From assembly GCF_057098645.1 (NCBI RefSeq), contig NZ_CM169472.1: a DNA stretch of 64,000 nt; one strand, given 5' to 3'. The position numbers and the translations under genes were made by a program. Positions 9,190 through 24,234 of this stretch are shown piece by piece. Positions within the stretch are counted from its first letter, which is position 1. Every line of letters begins with the position of its first letter. The notes under the pieces were generated by a model that saw nothing but the letters and a program-made list of their open reading frames with translations, was not told the origin of the DNA and did not search any database.

Positions 9190-9276
9190 TGGTGCGAGGG
9201 GGGGGACTTGAACCCCCACGTCCGTAAGGACACTAACACCTGAAGCTAGCGCGTCTACCAATTCCGCCACCTTCGC
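9190..9276 (-). tRNA. leuV: tRNA-Leu (CAG)
   Basis: 87-nt sequence whose reverse complement is GCGAAGGTGGCGGAATTGGTAGACGCGCTAGCTTCAGGTGTTAGTGTCCTTACGGACGTGGGGGTTCAAGTCCCCCCCCTCGCACCA. Confidence 0.95.
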
Positions 9277-9310
9277 ACAGTCATCTTACTTTTTTTGATA
9301 TCGCCTCGTT

Positions 9311-9397
9311 TGGTGCGAGGGGGGGGACTTGAACCCCCACGTCCGTAAGAACACTAACACCTGAAGCTAGCGCGTCTACCAATTCCGCCACCTTCGC
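9311..9397 (-). tRNA. leuP: tRNA-Leu (CAG), middle copy with one base change in the variable arm
   Basis: Same 87-nt tRNA except gtaagaacact versus gtaaggacact on the plus strand. Confidence 0.93.
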
Positions 9398-9425
9398 CCA
9401 GTGCGAGCAATATCAACGTGGTTTT

Positions 9426-9512
9426 TGGTGCGAGGGGGGGGACTTGAACCCCCACGTCCGTAAGGACACTAACACCTGAAGCTAGCGCGTCTACCAATTC
9501 CGCCACCTTCGC
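9426..9512 (-). tRNA. leuQ: tRNA-Leu (CAG)
   Basis: Third tandem copy, identical to the first. Confidence 0.95.
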
Positions 9513-12852: not shown

Positions 12853-14091
12853 ATGGCGCTGTCTGATGCGTGGTTGCGTTCAGTCGTTGGAAAGGAACGT
12901 GATAAGGTTTTGGTTAAATCCGATCGTGATGGTCTGTCTGTCAGAGTATCACCGAAAGGTCGCGTAGTGTTCCAATATCGTTATCAATGGGCAGGGAAAG
13001 GTGAGCGCCTTGATATCGGAACTTACCCGGCAACTGGATTAAAAGAGGCCAGAGAAGAAGTTATCCGTCTCCGTGGTGAACTCGAGTCAAACCGCAATCC
13101 ACGATTAGTCAAGCAGGCTGAAAAACGAAAAGCTACTGAAGCTATGACGGTAGAGTCTGTGATCCGTGCCTGGTATGAAGCATATTGTGTAAAAAATAAA
13201 AAAGGTTCTGAACAGATACTCCGCTCGTTTGAGCTGCACCTGTTCTCTAAAATCGGGAATATCCCTCACGATGCAGCTACATTGCATGATTGGTTAGAAG
13301 TCCTGGAGCCTCTTAGCACTAAGACTCCAGCAATAGCAGACCGATTGCTAATTAACGCAAAGCAGGCCCATGTCTGGGCGTATAAGAGAAAGCTCATTGA
13401 AACTCGCCCGCTGTCGGATATCACGGGTAAAGATATGGATATCCGTAAAGGTCAGAAGAAACGGTTTCTGACACATGATGAAATTAAAATCCTTTATGCT
13501 GCGATCGATGGTTCTCGAATGGTTCCCAAATACCGGGCCTTCATTAAACTATTGCTGCATTTCGGCTGTCGTAGTTCAGAGCTGATTACTGCCAGGGTGG
13601 ATGATTTTGATTTCATTAATAAGGTATGGACTGTACCGCCAGAACGACATAAGACAGGTGATATAACAGGCGAACCGCTAAAGCGCCCCATTATTGAACC
13701 GGTTGAAGAGCTTATAAAATACGTTATCTCTATGAACAACGGTTCCGATATGCTTTTTACCAAGGAAGGAAGCAAGGAGCCAGTTGGTCGGACATCATTG
13801 CAGTCGCTGCCTTACAATTTAATGCAGTACGCATGGCGGCGTTTGGGGTATCAATTTCCTCATTGGTCTCTTCATGATTTGAGACGAACAGCACGAACAA
13901 ACTTTTCTGATCTTACTGCGCCTCATATTGCTGAAATAATGCTCGGTCATAAACTGCCAGGGGTATGGCAAGTTTATGATAAGAGCGATTATCTAGAAGA
14001 ACAGCGTAAAGCCTATCAGGCATGGTGGGATAGGGTTGATTCGATTCTTACTTACACTAATTTAGGTTCCAACAGACAGCCTATTGAATAA
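12853..14091 (+). CDS. int: Phage tyrosine integrase (P4-type, N-terminal arm-binding DUF4102-like domain)
   Basis: 412 aa; catalytic signature HDLRRTARTN ... LGHK ... VYDKSDY; adjacent to attL. Confidence 0.9.
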   Translation: MALSDAWLRSVVGKERDKVLVKSDRDGLSVRVSPKGRVVFQYRYQWAGKGERLDIGTYPATGLKEAREEVIRLRGELESNRNPRLVKQAEKRKATEAMTVESVIRAWYEAYCVKNKKGSEQILRSFELHLFSKIGNIPHDAATLHDWLEVLEPLSTKTPAIADRLLINAKQAHVWAYKRKLIETRPLSDITGKDMDIRKGQKKRFLTHDEIKILYAAIDGSRMVPKYRAFIKLLLHFGCRSSELITARVDDFDFINKVWTVPPERHKTGDITGEPLKRPIIEPVEELIKYVISMNNGSDMLFTKEGSKEPVGRTSLQSLPYNLMQYAWRRLGYQFPHWSLHDLRRTARTNFSDLTAPHIAEIMLGHKLPGVWQVYDKSDYLEEQRKAYQAWWDRVDSILTYTNLGSNRQPIE

Positions 14092-20141: not shown

Positions 20142-20816
20142 TTAGGCCTTTATTATGTATCTTCTTGGTTTTCCTGAGAAAATCACTGTACCAATTATAG
20201 AGCAATTACCGTTGATCTTAATGTAAGGTTCAGGCCAGTTTGGGTTTAATGCTTTGAGGTAACGCTGTGTTCCATCTTCTATCAACCGCTTGAAGGTGGT
20301 TTCGCCTGTATCGTGCATCAATGCAATAACGTCGTCACCGTGGCAGGCAGGGACTTCAGGATCAACAAAAATCATGTCTCCCGGGCGGTACTCATCAATC
20401 ATTGAATCACCAATCACCCGCAAGATATAAGTCATTTCGCCACAGGGTACAGGGCAGGGGTAAGTTTCTGCTGTGCTCAAATCAACCTCAGAATAGCCAA
20501 CTTCTTTCCATGCTCCGGCCTGTACCCATGATATGACAGGGACTAACGTTATTTGTTTGTTAGTGATTGAAACATCAGGTTTTTTTGTGATGTTCGTGGT
20601 CTGGTGTTCTTGATCAAGCCATCCGACAGGCAGGTCGAAACATTTTTCGATGTGCCGCGCCATGCTGTCACCGATATTTTTAGTAGCACCATCTCCCATA
20701 AACCTGCTGGTCTGGGTTGGCTCGCGATCAATCATGGTGGCAAAGGAAGAATTCCCGCCAACACCATCTCTCAGTTTTCTGGCGTTAGACCGCCGGATGT
20801 CATGGACTGTTTTCAT
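20142..20816 (-). CDS. cI: CI-like prophage repressor (HTH plus LexA-like S24 peptidase domain)
   Basis: 224 aa; C-terminal S24 region with GDSM motif (VIGDSMIDEYRPGDMIFVDPE); divergent from a cro-like gene. Confidence 0.85.
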   Translation of the reverse strand: MKTVHDIRRSNARKLRDGVGGNSSFATMIDREPTQTSRFMGDGATKNIGDSMARHIEKCFDLPVGWLDQEHQTTNITKKPDVSITNKQITLVPVISWVQAGAWKEVGYSEVDLSTAETYPCPVPCGEMTYILRVIGDSMIDEYRPGDMIFVDPEVPACHGDDVIALMHDTGETTFKRLIEDGTQRYLKALNPNWPEPYIKINGNCSIIGTVIFSGKPRRYIIKA

Positions 20817-20851: not shown

Positions 20852-20906
20852 GTATCTTGAAGGTTCATCTTAATCATGTAATATGTATACCGGAGGTACA
20901 TATTGT

Positions 20907-21107
20907 ATGAAAGCGTATTGGGACTCTTTAACCAAAGAACAGCAGGGCGAGTTGGCCGGAAAAGTTGGCTCAACACCAGGCTATTTACGGCTGGTTTTCA
21001 ATGGTTATAAAAAAGCCAGTTTTGTGCTGGCTAAAAAACTTGAGCAATGCACGTCAGGTGCAATTACGAAATCTGACTTAAGACCGGATATCTATCCGAA
21101 AGATTAA
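20907..21107 (+). CDS. cro: Cro/YdaS-like HTH regulator
   Basis: Small HTH ORF divergent from cI; GGAGG RBS before the ATG at 20907. Confidence 0.7.
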   Translation: MKAYWDSLTKEQQGELAGKVGSTPGYLRLVFNGYKKASFVLAKKLEQCTSGAITKSDLRPDIYPKD

Positions 21108-21138: not shown

Positions 21139-21702
21139 ATGAGGCTAACCGTGGGTAAGCATCACTGGAAAGTAGAAAAACAGCCTGAGTGGTACGTGAA
21201 AGCTGTCAGAAAAACTATCGCGGCGTTGCCGGGGGGGTACGCTGAAGCTGCTGAGTGGCTAGATGTAACAGAGAACGCTTTATTCAACCGCCTTCGTGCA
21301 GATGGCGATCAGATTTTCCCGCTGGGATGGGCAATGATTTTACAGCGCGCGGCTGGCACTCACTACATTGCGGATGCTGTCGCACAGTCTGCTGGTGGGG
21401 TGTTTGTATCGCTTCCTGAAATTGAGGAAGTAGAGAACGCCGATATAAACCAGCGCCTGCTGGAAGTCATCGAACAGATCGGGAGTTACTCAAAGCAGAT
21501 TCGTTCGGCAATCGAAGATGGGGTAGTGGAGCCACACGAGCAGACAGCAATTAATGATGAGTTGTATCTGTCAATTTCGAAGCTCCAGGAGCATGCAGCA
21601 CTGGTCTACAAAATCTTTTGCGCTCCAGAAAAGAGTGACGCCCGCGAGTGTGCAGCTCCGGGCGTCGTGGCGTTTTGTGTCTGTGGAGAAACTAACGCAT
21701 GA
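21139..21702 (+). CDS. CII-like / YdaT-family phage regulatory protein
   Basis: 187-aa ORF directly after cro; assigned by position and general resemblance to prophage CII/CP76-type proteins. Confidence 0.45.
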   Translation: MRLTVGKHHWKVEKQPEWYVKAVRKTIAALPGGYAEAAEWLDVTENALFNRLRADGDQIFPLGWAMILQRAAGTHYIADAVAQSAGGVFVSLPEIEEVENADINQRLLEVIEQIGSYSKQIRSAIEDGVVEPHEQTAINDELYLSISKLQEHAALVYKIFCAPEKSDARECAAPGVVAFCVCGETNA

Positions 21703-22535
21703 ACAGTTTAACGGCAAATAACCGTTTGTCGCAACAGCTGGTGGTCAGCGTCGCTGAACACCTGTTGTTACGGCATGAATGCAGATTACCAAATCACCTG
21801 GCTGTAAGTAACCACAGAGAACTTTACCTGACTGTGGGGGGCGAGTTGTGCAGGAACTTAACCGCTGGTTTCGTGACGGAAGAGGGCTTTATGTCCATGT
21901 TATTCGTTGGGAGCCAGAAACACAGCGCGTTATCTATCTTCGCAAAGACTACCCGCATGAGTGCTTTAGTCCTTTGTGGAAATTCAGGCGTGATTTTGTT
22001 GAGTGTGAAGGACCACCAGCACATTGATTCTGCCATTCCGGGACGTTACACTGTTCAGGCACCTTATAAAGCGGGTGCCGGGATTGGCGTCCTGGAAATG
22101 TTATCGGCGATATATGACGCGCCAGCGTCTTTTTTATCGTCTGCGTCTGTGCACACCCAAATTATGGTGGGCTGGACGGGGGCACCGAAAGGTGCGCCGG
22201 TTTCCGATAACGCCGGTTACGCCAACCCCGTTCAGTTCACCACCAGCGAAATTGGCGTTTCCGGTGGTGAAGGTAATTCACTGTTATCGGAGGCTGCCAT
22301 CATGGCTACTGTCCCAGCCCTCACTCGTCTGAATGATGAAGACTTACATAAACTCAGTTATGTAACAACTGCACTACGTGCTCTGCGCAAGGTAACTCTT
22401 TCGGATCCGCAGGCGCATCAAGTTCTGGTAGAAACCCTTCTTAACTTGCAGGCTGAACGTATTCGTCTGGCGGATAAGGCTAATTTTCATATTCACCGTC
22501 TCCTGAATATCAGCGGAGGGCATCGTCATGCTTAA
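21699..22535 (+). CDS. Hypothetical phage protein (replication-module position)
   Basis: 278-aa ORF translationally coupled between the CII-like and O-like genes; no motif recognised. Confidence 0.5.
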   Translation: MNSLTANNRLSQQLVVSVAEHLLLRHECRLPNHLAVSNHRELYLTVGGELCRNLTAGFVTEEGFMSMLFVGSQKHSALSIFAKTTRMSALVLCGNSGVILLSVKDHQHIDSAIPGRYTVQAPYKAGAGIGVLEMLSAIYDAPASFLSSASVHTQIMVGWTGAPKGAPVSDNAGYANPVQFTTSEIGVSGGEGNSLLSEAAIMATVPALTRLNDEDLHKLSYVTTALRALRKVTLSDPQAHQVLVETLLNLQAERIRLADKANFHIHRLLNISGGHRHA

Positions 22536-22764
22536 TCCGTTGATCCTCAATATTTGCCGTTTGCTTCAGCGTAAAAAAACATCAATTCCTACAGTTGGGC
22601 AGTGGTACACCACACCTGCAGGGCATGTTCTACGTGTTAGCCTGGTTGACCGTGAATGCCAGAAGGTGATTTGTGAACCGCTGGGCCGTAATTACCGCGT
22701 CAGTATGCCGCTTATAGCCTTTCGCTCCGGAAAAAACATGAAGCATCTCGGAGGTGCAGCATGA
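22528..22764 (+). CDS. Hypothetical small phage protein
   Basis: 78-aa ORF with overlapping stop/start coupling to its neighbours. Confidence 0.4.
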   Translation: MLNPLILNICRLLQRKKTSIPTVGQWYTTPAGHVLRVSLVDRECQKVICEPLGRNYRVSMPLIAFRSGKNMKHLGGAA

Positions 22765-23579
22765 GTATGGAGCTGATGGTTAAAGCGATGAAAATTCGAG
22801 TGGGTAATCCATTGCGAAAACTGGTTCTGATCAAGCTGGCTGATAATGCCAGCGATCAGGGTGAGTGCTGGCCCAGCTACCAGCATATTGCTGACCAGTG
22901 CGAGATTAGCAAACGTTCTGTGATGAATCATATTGCGGCCCTTTGTGAGTCCGGGCTGGTAAAAAAAGTCACCCGGAAAGGTGAAAAAGGTAACTCAAGT
23001 AATATCTATCTCCTTCATCTGGATGGTGCAGGAGATTCACTAGGGGGTAGTGCAAATAATTCACTATCTGGTGCAGCAAATTCACCAGGTAGTGCAGGAG
23101 TTGCACCAGGGGGTAGTGCAGGAGATTCACCCAGAACCAGTCACTCTTTTGAACCAGTCAAAGAACCAGTCAATGAACCAATAGCTGTTGGTGCATCAGT
23201 TGATGAGTCCGTGCGAGTTCGTTCAAACCGACCGGAATATTCTCCGGAGTTTGAGCAGGCATGGCTGGCATATCCCAAACGTGCTGGTGGCAATTCAAAA
23301 TCTGCAGCCTTCAAAGCCTGGAAAGCCCGTTTGAATGAGGGGGTAAACCCCGAAACCATGCTGGAAGGTGTGAAACGCTATGCGGGCTGGGTATCTGCGA
23401 TGGGTAACAGCGGCACACAATTTGTGAAACAGGCTGTCACGTTCTTTGGTCCGGATCGTCATTTCGAAGAATCCTGGGAAGTTCCTGCGGTATCTGCAGC
23501 CAGACGTGAGGACCCGTACTTCAAATCCAGTTACGACAACGTGGACTACAGCCAGATCCCGGCAGGATTCAGGGGGTGA
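22761..23579 (+). CDS. Replication initiator (O-like N-terminal HTH) with a DnaT-like C-terminal domain
   Basis: N-terminal HTH (IADQCEISKRSVMNHIAALCESGLV); Gly/Ser-rich linker encoded by repeats; C-terminus ...DYSQIPAGFRG matches host DnaT ...[10 protein letters not shown]. Confidence 0.7.
   Translation: MSMELMVKAMKIRVGNPLRKLVLIKLADNASDQGECWPSYQHIADQCEISKRSVMNHIAALCESGLVKKVTRKGEKGNSSNIYLLHLDGAGDSLGGSANNSLSGAANSPGSAGVAPGGSAGDSPRTSHSFEPVKEPVNEPIAVGASVDESVRVRSNRPEYSPEFEQAWLAYPKRAGGNSKSAAFKAWKARLNEGVNPETMLEGVKRYAGWVSAMGNSGTQFVKQAVTFFGPDRHFEESWEVPAVSAARREDPYFKSSYDNVDYSQIPAGFRG
23034..23190. repeat. Iteron-like direct repeats inside the O-like gene (candidate ori)
   Basis: ggtgcaggagattcac at 23035 and 23126; five gtagtgca/ggtgcag units; three gaaccagtca units at 23145..23182. 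Confidence 0.5.
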
Positions 23580-23911
23580 TCATGAGTCTTTTGAATGACG
23601 TTCAGAAATTCATTGAAGCCCATCCGGGGTGTACTTCCGGAGACATTGCGGATGCTTTTGCAGGTTACTCACGGCAGCGCGTACTGCAGTCAGCAAGCAA
23701 GTTACGTCAGAGTGGGCGTGTGGCTCACCGTTGTGAAGGGGATACACGCAGACATTTCCCGCGCCTGACTGAGAGAGCGCAGGAGCCGGAACCACAACCA
23801 GTTCGTGAAACCAGACCTGTGCGCAATTTCTATGTCGGCACTAACGATTCCCGGGTGATTTTGTGCCTGACTCGCCAGGCGGAAAAACTGGTCAGGGAGA
23901 TGGCGGCATGA
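23576..23911 (+). CDS. Hypothetical phage protein
   Basis: 111-aa ORF coupled between the replication gene and the LexA-like gene. Confidence 0.4.
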   Translation: MIMSLLNDVQKFIEAHPGCTSGDIADAFAGYSRQRVLQSASKLRQSGRVAHRCEGDTRRHFPRLTERAQEPEPQPVRETRPVRNFYVGTNDSRVILCLTRQAEKLVREMAA

Positions 23912-24234
23912 CGACGTTAACTCAATGCCAGCAGCAGGTGCTGGATATGCTGATTTCTTACCAGAAAGAACGTGGCTTCCCGCCAACCAATCAGGAGGTG
24001 GCAACCATGCTGGGATACCGTTCAGTGAATGCAGCGGTGGAGCATCTTCGCGCACTGGAGAAAAAAGGCGTCATCACGATAAAGCGTGGCGTGGCCCGGG
24101 GGATCACGCTTCATACCGCAGTGAAGGACGACGACAGCGAAGCGGTCGGTATCATCCGCGCACTGCTTGCCGGTGAGGAGAACGCCAGGCTGCGTGCAGC
24201 CCACTGGTTACATGAGAGGGGCCTGAAAGTATGA
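23908..24234 (+). CDS. LexA N-terminal DNA-binding-domain-only protein (no S24 peptidase domain)
   Basis: MTTLTQCQQQVLDMLISYQKERGFPPTNQEVATMLGYRSVNAAVEHLRALEKKGVITIKRGVARGITL closely parallels the LexA N-domain; the protein ends after ~108 aa. Confidence 0.7.
   Translation: MTTLTQCQQQVLDMLISYQKERGFPPTNQEVATMLGYRSVNAAVEHLRALEKKGVITIKRGVARGITLHTAVKDDDSEAVGIIRALLAGEENARLRAAHWLHERGLKV

What the first reader, a model, noticed from the sequence alone, without database searches (positions are those of the whole stretch)
23034..23190. Iteron-like direct repeats inside the replication gene (candidate origin)
The Gly/Ser-rich linker of the O-like protein is encoded by repeated DNA units: ggtgcaggagattcac twice (23035, 23126), five gtagtgca/ggtgcag variants, then three gaaccagtca repeats. 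Lambda places its ori iterons inside the O gene linker in the same way.
Basis: seen in the sequence. Interest (0 to 1): 0.5.

Follow-up and report, generated by a model that had tools for sequence, protein, structure and literature searches.

The report
Prophage replication origin inside initiator gene
The repeats are real and are very probably the binding sites (iterons) of a prophage replication origin, written inside the gene for the protein that binds them as in phage lambda; this is an expected kind of feature, but this widespread family seems never to have been annotated or described.

Summary
The gene at 22761-23579 encodes a 272-aa initiator with an N-terminal winged-helix domain (HTH_36). 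Its linker is encoded by five 15-bp dyad-symmetric units, GTGMA-N5-TKCAC, at 23026, 23050, 23071, 23092 and 23116 (spacing 24, 21, 21, 24). After them come three or four copies of GAACCAGTCA (23134, 23151, 23163; degenerate at 23175).

Comparison with relatives shows the constraint acts on the DNA, not the peptide.
- The same iteron occurs in other reading frames and in the opposite orientation, encoding unrelated peptides.
- Spacing stays at 22-24 bp even when it is not a multiple of 3.
- One residue of the recognition helix (N56 here) covaries with the half-site: Arg goes with GTGAC, non-Arg with GTGMA.
- The downstream AACCAGTCA element is conserved in phages of six or more bacterial genera and is read in all three frames.
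- Lambda's own iterons, analysed the same way, behave identically.

My verdict is a lambda-like origin embedded in a non-lambda-O initiator gene. It is a new member of a known kind. Protein binding and origin activity have not been tested. The unwinding site is uncertain, because there is no strong AT-rich tract on the lambda side of the array.

The parts
22761..23579 (+). Replication initiator gene (272 aa) that contains the candidate origin
   Evidence: ORF listed. Matches HTH_36 at aa 17-67 and, weakly, DnaD_N. Matches phrog_270 'replication initiation protein' at 1.8e-88. It is 89% identical to ST64B sb42 'replication protein' and about 99% identical to the gene in Stx2c phages.
22761..23021 (+). 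N-terminal winged-helix DNA-binding domain (aa 1-87), the presumed iteron reader
   Evidence: This domain is conserved in all relatives (alignment A1). A profile of it finds 325 clusters at 50% identity with E<=1e-30.
22902..22940 (+). Recognition-helix segment EISKRSVMNHIAA (aa 48-60). N56 (22926-22928) is the residue that covaries with the iteron half-site
   Evidence: Arg at this position goes with the GTGAC-N5-GTCAC class in 11 of 11 cases. Non-Arg goes with the GTGMA-N5-TKCAC class in 57 of 58 classifiable cases.
22981..23020 (.). Least stable 40 bp of the gene, immediately left of iteron 1; an alternative candidate for the unwinding site
   Evidence: Nearest-neighbour stability profile, dG -45.7 against a mean of -55.7, about 2.5-2.7 sd less stable. 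GC is 35%. This feature is not conserved in the GC-rich relatives.
23026..23040 (.). Iteron 1, GTGCAGGAGATTCAC
23050..23064 (.). Iteron 2, GTGCAAATAATTCAC
23071..23085 (.). Iteron 3, GTGCAGCAAATTCAC
23092..23106 (.). Iteron 4, GTGCAGGAGTTGCAC (perfect inverted half-sites)
   Evidence: it matches on both strands.
23116..23130 (.). Iteron 5, GTGCAGGAGATTCAC, abutting the conserved element
   Evidence: In every relative the last iteron abuts the element.
23131..23184 (.). Family-wide conserved element CCAGAACCAGTCAC-TCTTTT-GAACCAGTCAA-A-GAACCAGTCAA-T-GAACC. GAACC starts at 23134, 23151, 23163 and 23175. Candidate unwinding or helicase-loading core
   Evidence: The first copy is read as RTSH and the next two as EPV, so the repeat is out of frame with itself. 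The element is conserved at 87-100% nucleotide identity in 139 phage records, one place per record. It is read in all three frames in relatives. Polymorphism is low, 2 variant alleles in 54 nt.
23208..23576 (+). C-terminal domain (aa 150-272), the presumed helicase or loader recruitment module

Best explanation
Positions 23026-23184 are the replication origin of this lambdoid prophage, embedded in the linker-coding part of its own initiator gene.

Shown:
- There are five 15-bp units with dyad symmetry, GTGMA-N5-TKCAC, spaced 21-24 bp (about two helical turns).
- They are followed directly by an element of AACCAGTCA repeats that the whole initiator family shares.
- Both features are constrained as DNA and not as peptide.

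Inferred:
- Dimers of the N-terminal winged-helix domain bind each iteron. The recognition helix around S50-H57 reads the half-site, and residue 56 discriminates GTGMA from GTGAC.
- The phased array forms an O-some-like nucleoprotein complex that destabilises flanking DNA. The likeliest flank is the conserved AACCAGTCA element on the right. The AT-rich 22981-23020 on the left is the alternative.
- The C-terminal domain then recruits a replicative helicase. This prophage has no helicase or loader gene beside the initiator, so the helicase would be host DnaB with DnaC.
- Transcription from the cro-side early promoter passes through the site, as it does in lambda.
For: 1. The cluster is unique and far above chance. 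Its DNA identity exceeds what the peptide requires.

2. The unit is independent of frame and orientation.
- Metagenomic relative L098 carries GTGCAGGAGATTCAC x4 plus one variant in frames 0, 1, 0, 1, 1, spaced 22, 23, 22 and 24 bp.
- L099 and Vibrio phage 236O40-1 carry the unit in the opposite orientation, for example GTGAATCTCCTGCAC, encoding other peptides.
- mEp044 reads one 19-mer in two frames.

3. Helix and site covary. 'S(K/R)RSVx[not R]H' goes with GTGMA-N5-TKCAC. '...RH' or 'KRTAMR' goes with GTGAC-N5-GTCAC. 'SRSTVK' goes with GGGCAG-N3-CTGCCC. 'CSKSAV' goes with TGCC/GCAC-type palindromes. For Arg against non-Arg the table is 11/0 against 1/57, Fisher p = 7e-12, not corrected for phylogeny. 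P0015 (SKRSVMRH) and the window (SKRSVMNH) differ at this one residue within the SKRSVMxH core. They carry GTGAC and GTGCA iterons respectively.

4. Among 47 distinct close relatives, iteron positions vary less (4/75) than the spacers between them (7/30), Fisher p = 0.012. The conserved element varies at 2/54.

5. The downstream element occurs once per genome, always in this gene, in 139 phage records of Escherichia, Salmonella, Klebsiella, Vibrio, Aeromonas, Pectobacterium, Stenotrophomonas and Aggregatibacter. It keeps the rare AGA codon even in a Stenotrophomonas phage. It is read in three frames, as RTSH../EPV, HPEPV, LNQS and ITSK.

6. Lambda as a positive control has 4 iterons starting at codon 117, spaced 20, 24 and 23 bp and read in frames 0, 2, 2 and 1, followed by an A-rich tract.

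7. Partner genes downstream differ between relatives (DnaB-like, IstB/DnaC-like, lambda-P-like, primase-helicase, or none) while the N-terminal domain and DNA element stay the same. That is the modular pattern expected of an origin-binding initiator.

8. The literature states that lambda, P22 and L initiators each bind different iterons inside their own coding regions (PMC8022706). Lambda-type O also binds the single-stranded AT-rich region (PMC7466680).
Against: - There is no experimental binding or origin assay for any member of this family that I could find.
- There is no strongly AT-rich tract to the right of the iterons in this window. The conserved element is 43-50% GC and only about 1-1.6 sd less stable than average. 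The least stable stretch lies on the other side of the array, and it is not conserved in the GC-rich relatives.
- The covariation statistics are not corrected for shared ancestry.
- Copy number of both repeat types varies among near-identical relatives: iterons 5, 6 or 8, and one to four 12-bp EPV-coding units (two to five GAACCAGTCA copies in all). Replication slippage would produce this whether or not the repeats have a function.
- The protein shows no sequence relationship to lambda O, so the analogy is architectural.
Confidence: 0.75

Rival explanations
1. The units are real initiator-binding sites, but they act as operators or copy-control sites. The protein would bind its own gene for autoregulation, transcription roadblock or handcuffing, and replication would start elsewhere in the prophage.
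For: All the DNA-level evidence shows binding-site behaviour and not initiation as such. No strong AT-rich tract lies beside the array on the lambda side. Iterons in plasmids do serve in control as well as initiation (general knowledge of iteron plasmids).
Against: No second cluster of the motif exists anywhere in the 64 kb. The one outlying site, at 22267, is not conserved in relatives. The array is always followed by a family-wide conserved non-coding-type element that is the least stable part of the gene in 8 of 17 relatives, and about 2.6 sd less stable than average in Pseudomonas phages. The architecture matches lambda ori point for point.
Confidence: 0.13
2. The repeats are only a by-product of a low-complexity flexible linker that expands and contracts by replication slippage. 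The DNA similarity reflects recent duplication and not function.
For: The linker is Gly/Ser/Ala/Pro-rich. Copy number varies among near-identical relatives. Recent duplication alone would explain the excess DNA identity seen.
Against: The same 15-mer is kept between E. coli, Aeromonas and Vibrio phages and metagenomic relatives, in different frames and in both orientations, with different peptides. Half-sites are conserved while the central 5 bp and the spacers vary. Spacing of 22-24 bp is kept even when it is not a multiple of 3. The repeat class covaries with the recognition helix.
Confidence: 0.04
3. The iterons are DNA sites, but the conserved downstream block is kept for its peptide (P-R-T-S-H-S-F-E-P-V-x-E-P), a short motif that docks a conserved partner, and not as an origin DNA element.
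For: Most family members read it in the same frame, and the peptide RTSHS(F/L)EPV is recurrent. The block is not strongly AT-rich.
Against: Synonymous positions are conserved across hosts of very different GC content, including the rare AGA codon. Full-length relatives read the same DNA as HPEPVT (236O40-1, P0150), as LNQS (P0117) and as NQSYITSK (mEp044). The block is a direct DNA repeat whose first copy is out of frame with the others within this very gene. Partner proteins differ between relatives.
Confidence: 0.08

Closest known systems
Phage lambda ori, inside gene O and bound by the O protein (O-some)
   Same: The iterons lie inside the initiator's own gene, directly after the N-terminal DNA-binding domain. 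Each unit has dyad symmetry. There are 4-5 units spaced 20-24 bp. The units are read in different frames. An A-rich segment follows. The gene sits in the early rightward operon after cro and cII.
   Different: There is no detectable sequence homology to lambda O. The unit is 15 bp (5-N5-5) and not 18-19 bp. The downstream segment is a conserved AACCAGTCA direct repeat of about 45% GC, where lambda has a roughly 40-bp tract of much higher AT content. This prophage has no P-like gene next to the initiator.
P22 gene 18 and phage L gene 18 origins (P22-like lambdoid phages)
   Same: The literature describes repeats inside the initiator gene that differ between phages and are taken as the origin. 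Phage L has six imprecise copies of an 11-bp unit (PMC8022706).
   Different: The repeat sequences and protein families differ. I did not analyse the P22 or L sequences here. In those phages a DnaB-type helicase gene follows the initiator.
Stx-phage lambda-type origins (933W, P27), with six iterons
   Same: Iteron copy number differs between related phages and lengthens the initiator's linker. Synonymous iteron mutations impair plasmid establishment (PMC7466680). Here relatives carry 5, 6 or 8 units.
   Different: Those phages use true lambda O and P proteins and ATCCCTCAAAACGAGGGA-type iterons. The present type, found in Stx2c phages, SfV, ST64B, cdtI phage, mEp460 and phi24B 'O', is a different initiator family.
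Iteron plasmids (pPS10, RK2, F and R6K; Rep winged-helix initiators)
   Same: A winged-helix initiator binds phased direct repeats next to an unwinding element built from short repeats. In those plasmids Rep also contacts single-stranded unwinding-element DNA (PMC4081077, listed; I did not read it in detail).
   Different: Plasmid iterons lie outside the rep gene. There is no Rep_3 domain here. No DnaA boxes are present.

Membership tests
Lambdoid origin embedded in the initiator gene (functional class) | Several direct repeats, each with internal dyad symmetry, inside the initiator's own coding region | tested here: met
   Five GTGMA-N5-TKCAC units at 23026-23130 within the gene at 22761-23579.
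Lambdoid origin embedded in the initiator gene (functional class) | Repeats phased at about two helical turns | tested here: met
   Spacing is 24, 21, 21 and 24 bp. Relatives show 22-24 bp. Lambda shows 20, 24 and 23 bp.
Lambdoid origin embedded in the initiator gene (functional class) | Repeats constrained as DNA, independent of reading frame | tested here: met
   The same unit occurs in two frames and both orientations in relatives. Lambda's iterons are read in frames 0, 2, 2 and 1.
Lambdoid origin embedded in the initiator gene (functional class) | Repeat sequence specific to the initiator's DNA-binding domain | tested here: met
   Recognition helix and iteron class covary.
Lambdoid origin embedded in the initiator gene (functional class) | Adjacent AT-rich unwinding region | tested here: inconclusive
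   The right-hand element is only mildly unstable here, about 1-1.6 sd less stable than average. The left flank 22981-23020 is about 2.5 sd less stable. The right-hand element is the least stable part of the gene in 8 of 17 relatives.
Lambdoid origin embedded in the initiator gene (functional class) | Initiator binds the repeats, and the fragment supports initiator-dependent replication | not testable with these tools
   This needs EMSA or footprinting and a plasmid replication assay.
Lambda O protein family (Pfam PF04492 Phage_rep_O) | Sequence match to the O N-terminal domain | tested here: not met
   PF04492 is not among the Pfam hits. hhalign of the N-terminal profile against lambda O residues 1-116 gives a probability of 0.2%.
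HTH_36 (Pfam PF13730) winged-helix proteins | Match to the Pfam model | tested here: met
   E = 2.7e-11 over aa 17-67. Relatives carry the same precomputed annotation.
DnaD-like replisome organisers | DnaD N-terminal winged helix plus a DnaD/DnaB_2 C-terminal helical domain | tested here: inconclusive
Iteron-plasmid Rep initiators (Rep_3 and relatives) | Rep_3-type double winged-helix domain, with iterons outside the gene | tested here: not met
   There is no Rep_3 hit, and the iterons are intragenic.

The most novel reading that the evidence does not exclude
The AACCAGTCA-repeat block (23131-23184) is a previously undescribed, universal origin core shared by hundreds of initiator lineages in phages of Gammaproteobacteria. 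It would serve as an unwinding, single-strand-contact or helicase-loading site, read by the invariant part of the N-terminal domain or by the loaded helicase. The variable iterons beside it would follow a simple and partly decipherable recognition code, in which one helix residue switches GTGMA to GTGAC. If so, origin specificity in this family could be predicted and re-engineered from sequence alone.
Probability: 0.4. Interest if true: 0.6.

Novelty: new member of a known kind. Interest (0 to 1): 0.45.

Why it matters
The gene is present at 80% coverage or more in 896 of 5426 complete E. coli genomes. RefSeq names it only 'helix-turn-helix domain-containing protein'.

It is the replication initiator of many Stx2c- and Stx2a-converting phages and of SfV, ST64B, the Cdt-I phage and relatives. 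Toxin output from Stx phages depends on phage replication (PMC7466680). Experimental work has so far addressed only the lambda-type O/ori.

Locating the origin gives three practical things:
- a defined target for replication assays;
- an annotation rule for a large family (325 clusters at 50% identity with E<=1e-30);
- a natural data set of helix-site covariation for winged-helix specificity.

It also explains why this linker looks low-complexity and why frameshifted, truncated versions of the protein are common in databases.

Tried and rejected
- Chance occurrence was rejected by shuffles.
- Peptide-driven repetition was rejected by synonymous recoding and by variants in other frames and orientations.
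- A first scan of viral contigs with the N-terminal profile returned only relatives with a 100% identical N-terminal domain. They gave polymorphism and copy number but no diversity. Diversity came from tblastn on phage records and from the representative-protein search.
- A classical AT-rich unwinding tract to the right of the iterons was not found in this window.
- DnaA boxes, IHF consensus sites and GATC clusters are absent.
- No internal promoter was found, and the one terminator-like hairpin is at chance level.
- An outlying sixth site at 22267-22281 looked significant by position, but it is not conserved in relatives with the identical initiator. I treat it as chance.
- Homology to lambda O was not supported.
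- Literature searches for these iterons, or for the GAACCAGTCA motif in this context, found nothing relevant. The SfV and ST64B genome papers are not held, so an earlier brief mention cannot be excluded.

Full report
**What is in the sequence**

The window carries a lambdoid prophage early region. Its order is a cI-like repressor (20142-20816, minus strand), cro-like (20883-21107), cII-like (21139-21702), two further ORFs, and then a 272-aa ORF at 22761-23579.

That ORF has an N-terminal HTH_36 winged-helix domain (aa 17-67, E = 2.7e-11) and a weak DnaD_N match. It matches PHROG families named 'replication initiation protein' and 'replication initiation O-like'. It is about 99% identical to the gene in Stx2c-converting phages and 89% identical to ST64B sb42, 'replication protein'.

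Each has dyad symmetry, since GTGCA is nearly or exactly the reverse complement of TTCAC or TGCAC. Start-to-start spacing is 24, 21, 21 and 24 bp. The motif is otherwise almost absent from the 64 kb, with 6 hits in all against 0.30 expected.

Directly after unit 5 come GAACCAGTCA at 23134, 23151 and 23163 and a degenerate copy at 23175. The first of these is read as R-T-S-H and the next two as E-P-V. The repeat is therefore out of frame with itself (spacing 17, then 12), which a peptide repeat cannot produce.

**DNA or peptide?**

Recoding the linker peptide synonymously 5000 times with this prophage's codon usage gives a mean of 0.03 iteron matches against 5 observed, and 1.3 repeated 8-mer pairs against 37 observed. 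Recent duplication could also give that result, so I compared relatives.

I collected three sets.
- Eighty viral contigs with an identical N-terminal domain.
- Eighteen diverse phage genes: printed.
- The 150 best representatives from a profile search of 1.84 billion proteins. I fetched the DNA for seven of them.

Every relative has the same layout: a conserved winged-helix domain, then 2-8 dyad-symmetric units of about 15-19 bp, then the same downstream DNA block. The unit sequence differs between lineages.
- GGGCAG-GAG-CTGCCC in phi24B 'O' and SF10.
- GTGAC-N5-GTCAC in Vibrio phage D62, mEp044, P0015 and P0150.
- TGCC/GCAC-type palindromes in BUCT709, S135, ZF40, RothD and phiV039C.
- GCAGGAAATGCAC in Pseudomonas phages.

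Three observations are decisive.
- In L098, GTGCAGGAGATTCAC occurs four times plus one variant in frames 0, 1, 0, 1, 1, spaced 22, 23, 22 and 24 bp. It encodes VVQEIH and GAGDS alternately.
- In Vibrio phage 236O40-1 and in L099, the unit lies in the opposite orientation. In 236O40-1, GTGAATCTCCTGCAC is the exact reverse complement of the window's iteron. It encodes VVNLLH, GESPAL, SENSAL or VKNLHH.
- mEp044 reads one 19-mer in two frames.

So the DNA unit and its spacing of about two helical turns are conserved, while the peptide is free to change.

Iteron class follows the recognition helix. Within the large '(K/R)R(S/T)(V/A)' helix group, the residue aligned with N56 of this protein separates the classes.
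- Arg: 11 of 11 carry GTGAC-type units.
- Any other residue: 57 of 58 classifiable cases carry GTGMA-type units (Fisher p = 7e-12, not corrected for phylogeny).

P0015 (EISKRSVMRHIDD) carries five copies of GTGACAGAGAGTCAC. The window (EISKRSVMNHIAA) carries GTGCA units.

Among 47 distinct close relatives of equal length, iteron positions show 4 variant alleles in 75 nt, against 7 in 30 nt for the inter-iteron spacers (p = 0.012). One of the rare iteron changes, GTGCA to GTGAA, is found in ST64B unit 5 and in L080. It turns the unit into a perfect palindrome.

**The downstream block**

The block CC-AGAACCAGTCAC-TCTTTT-GAACCAGTCAA-(A/T)-GAACC occurs in 139 phage records. It appears once per record and always under a replication or HTH gene. 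The phages infect Escherichia, Salmonella, Klebsiella, Vibrio, Aeromonas, Pectobacterium, Stenotrophomonas and Aggregatibacter.

Synonymous positions are kept, including the rare AGA codon. Full-length relatives read the same DNA as HPEPVT (236O40-1, P0150), as LNQS after a 1-nt deletion (P0117), or as NQSYITSK (mEp044). Pseudomonas phages keep GAACC every 11-12 bp, and there the block is the least stable DNA of the gene, about 2.6 sd less stable than average.

In this window the block is only mildly unstable. The least stable 40 bp is 22981-23020, on the other side of the array.

I therefore treat the block as the probable unwinding or loading core, with moderate confidence, and flag the left flank as the alternative. 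An unrelated O-like gene that shares only the C-terminal domain (a Stx1 phage, L102) also has its own repeats followed by four 12-bp tandem units. This suggests a general iteron-plus-short-repeat design.

**Lambda as control**

Lambda's four annotated iterons start at codon 117 of O. They are spaced 20, 24 and 23 bp, are read in frames 0, 2, 2 and 1, and are followed by an A-rich tract. The architecture is the same here.

The proteins are not detectably related: there is no PF04492 hit and hhalign gives 0.2%. The literature held here states the general rule for lambda, P22 and L (PMC8022706). It documents iteron-number variation, the effect of synonymous iteron mutations, and single-strand binding for lambda-type O of Stx phages (PMC7466680). 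I found no description of this family's iterons, and the SfV and ST64B genome papers are not held.

**Mechanism**

Shown: the anatomy, the DNA-level constraint, the helix-site covariation, and the modular exchange of partner genes around a constant N-terminal domain and DNA block.

Inferred:
- Winged-helix dimers bind each unit.
- The phased array wraps and strains the DNA.
- Opening occurs at the adjacent conserved block.
- The C-terminal domain brings in a helicase.

**Verdict**

- It is a new member of a known kind: a lambdoid origin inside the initiator gene, carried by a different and very widespread initiator family. That family has 325 clusters at 50% identity with E<=1e-30, and the gene is in 896 of 5426 complete E. 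coli genomes, where it is annotated only as an HTH protein.
- Confidence that the units are initiator-binding sites is about 0.85.
- Confidence that this is the origin is about 0.75.
- Interest is moderate. The principle is textbook, but the family-wide conserved core and the readable helix-site code are new, testable details.

Noticed in passing
window 22059-22135 and 22160-22247 (+): Rfam matches above gathering score to isrK Hfq-binding RNA (63.7 bits) and C4 antisense RNA (82.8 bits). Both lie inside the mechanically called ORF 21699-22535, which has PHROG hits named 'transcriptional regulator'. This looks like a P1/P7-type c4-controlled antirepressor module sitting just upstream of the replication gene.
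   Followed up: no
window 22267-22281 (+): A sixth, perfectly palindromic match to the iteron pattern (GTGAAGGTAATTCAC) lies 745 bp upstream of the array and 20 bp after the C4 RNA match. Only 12 of 42 close relatives sharing that flank keep it; the others read GTGGAAGTTATCCAT or GTGGAAGTATTTCAC. It is probably chance.
   Followed up: yes
window 23050-23184 (+1 frame); proteins P0005, P0012, P0014, P0026, P0037, P0060, P0083: Read in the +1 frame, the array and conserved block give ...VVQEIHPEPVTLLNQSKNQSMNQ followed by a stop. Many database representatives of 140-200 aa end in exactly this way. These are frameshifts inside the iteron array that leave proteins with only the N-terminal domain. 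I did not determine whether they are sequencing errors, decayed prophages or functional truncated binders.
   Followed up: partly
loci L006-L085 (relatives with an identical N-terminal domain): Copy number varies. Most relatives have 5 iterons; L043, L044 and L081 have 6; L029 and L057 have 8. The number of 12-bp EPV-coding units varies from 1 to 4, giving 2-5 GAACCAGTCA copies in all.
   Followed up: partly
locus L102 (Stx1a phage Stx1_14744), 1996-2904: This 'replication protein O' has an unrelated N-terminal domain but the same C-terminal domain as the window's protein. Its linker has GGGAAAC-type repeats followed by four 12-bp tandem units (ACAGAGAATACA and variants). DnaC-like and DnaB-like genes follow it. 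This suggests domain shuffling with an origin design of the same general kind.
   Followed up: partly
window 23576-23911 and 23863-24234 (+): The two genes after the initiator overlap each other. They are a PerC/YfdN-family 'transcriptional activator' (phrog_23071/1324; RefSeq names it yfdN, PerC family) and a LexA-DNA-binding-like 'transcriptional repressor' (phrog_362). No helicase or loader gene follows, unlike in most relatives.
   Followed up: no
window 9190-9512 (-): Three tandem tRNA-Leu(CAG) genes lie upstream of the prophage region, with a 412-aa ORF at 12853-14091 nearby. I did not examine the prophage boundary or attachment site.
   Followed up: no
window 22969-22984 (-): A terminator-like hairpin with a T-run on the minus strand (TCACCTTTCCGGGTGA CTTTTTTTAC) overlaps the AT-rich stretch just left of the iterons. 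One such site was found against 1.4 expected, so it is at chance level.
   Followed up: no
plasmid records H102, H104, H105, H116-H124: The same initiator family occurs on about 40-kb non-mobilizable circular 'plasmid' records, including ten in Arsenophonus nasoniae. These look like episomal phage genomes or phage-plasmids.
   Followed up: no
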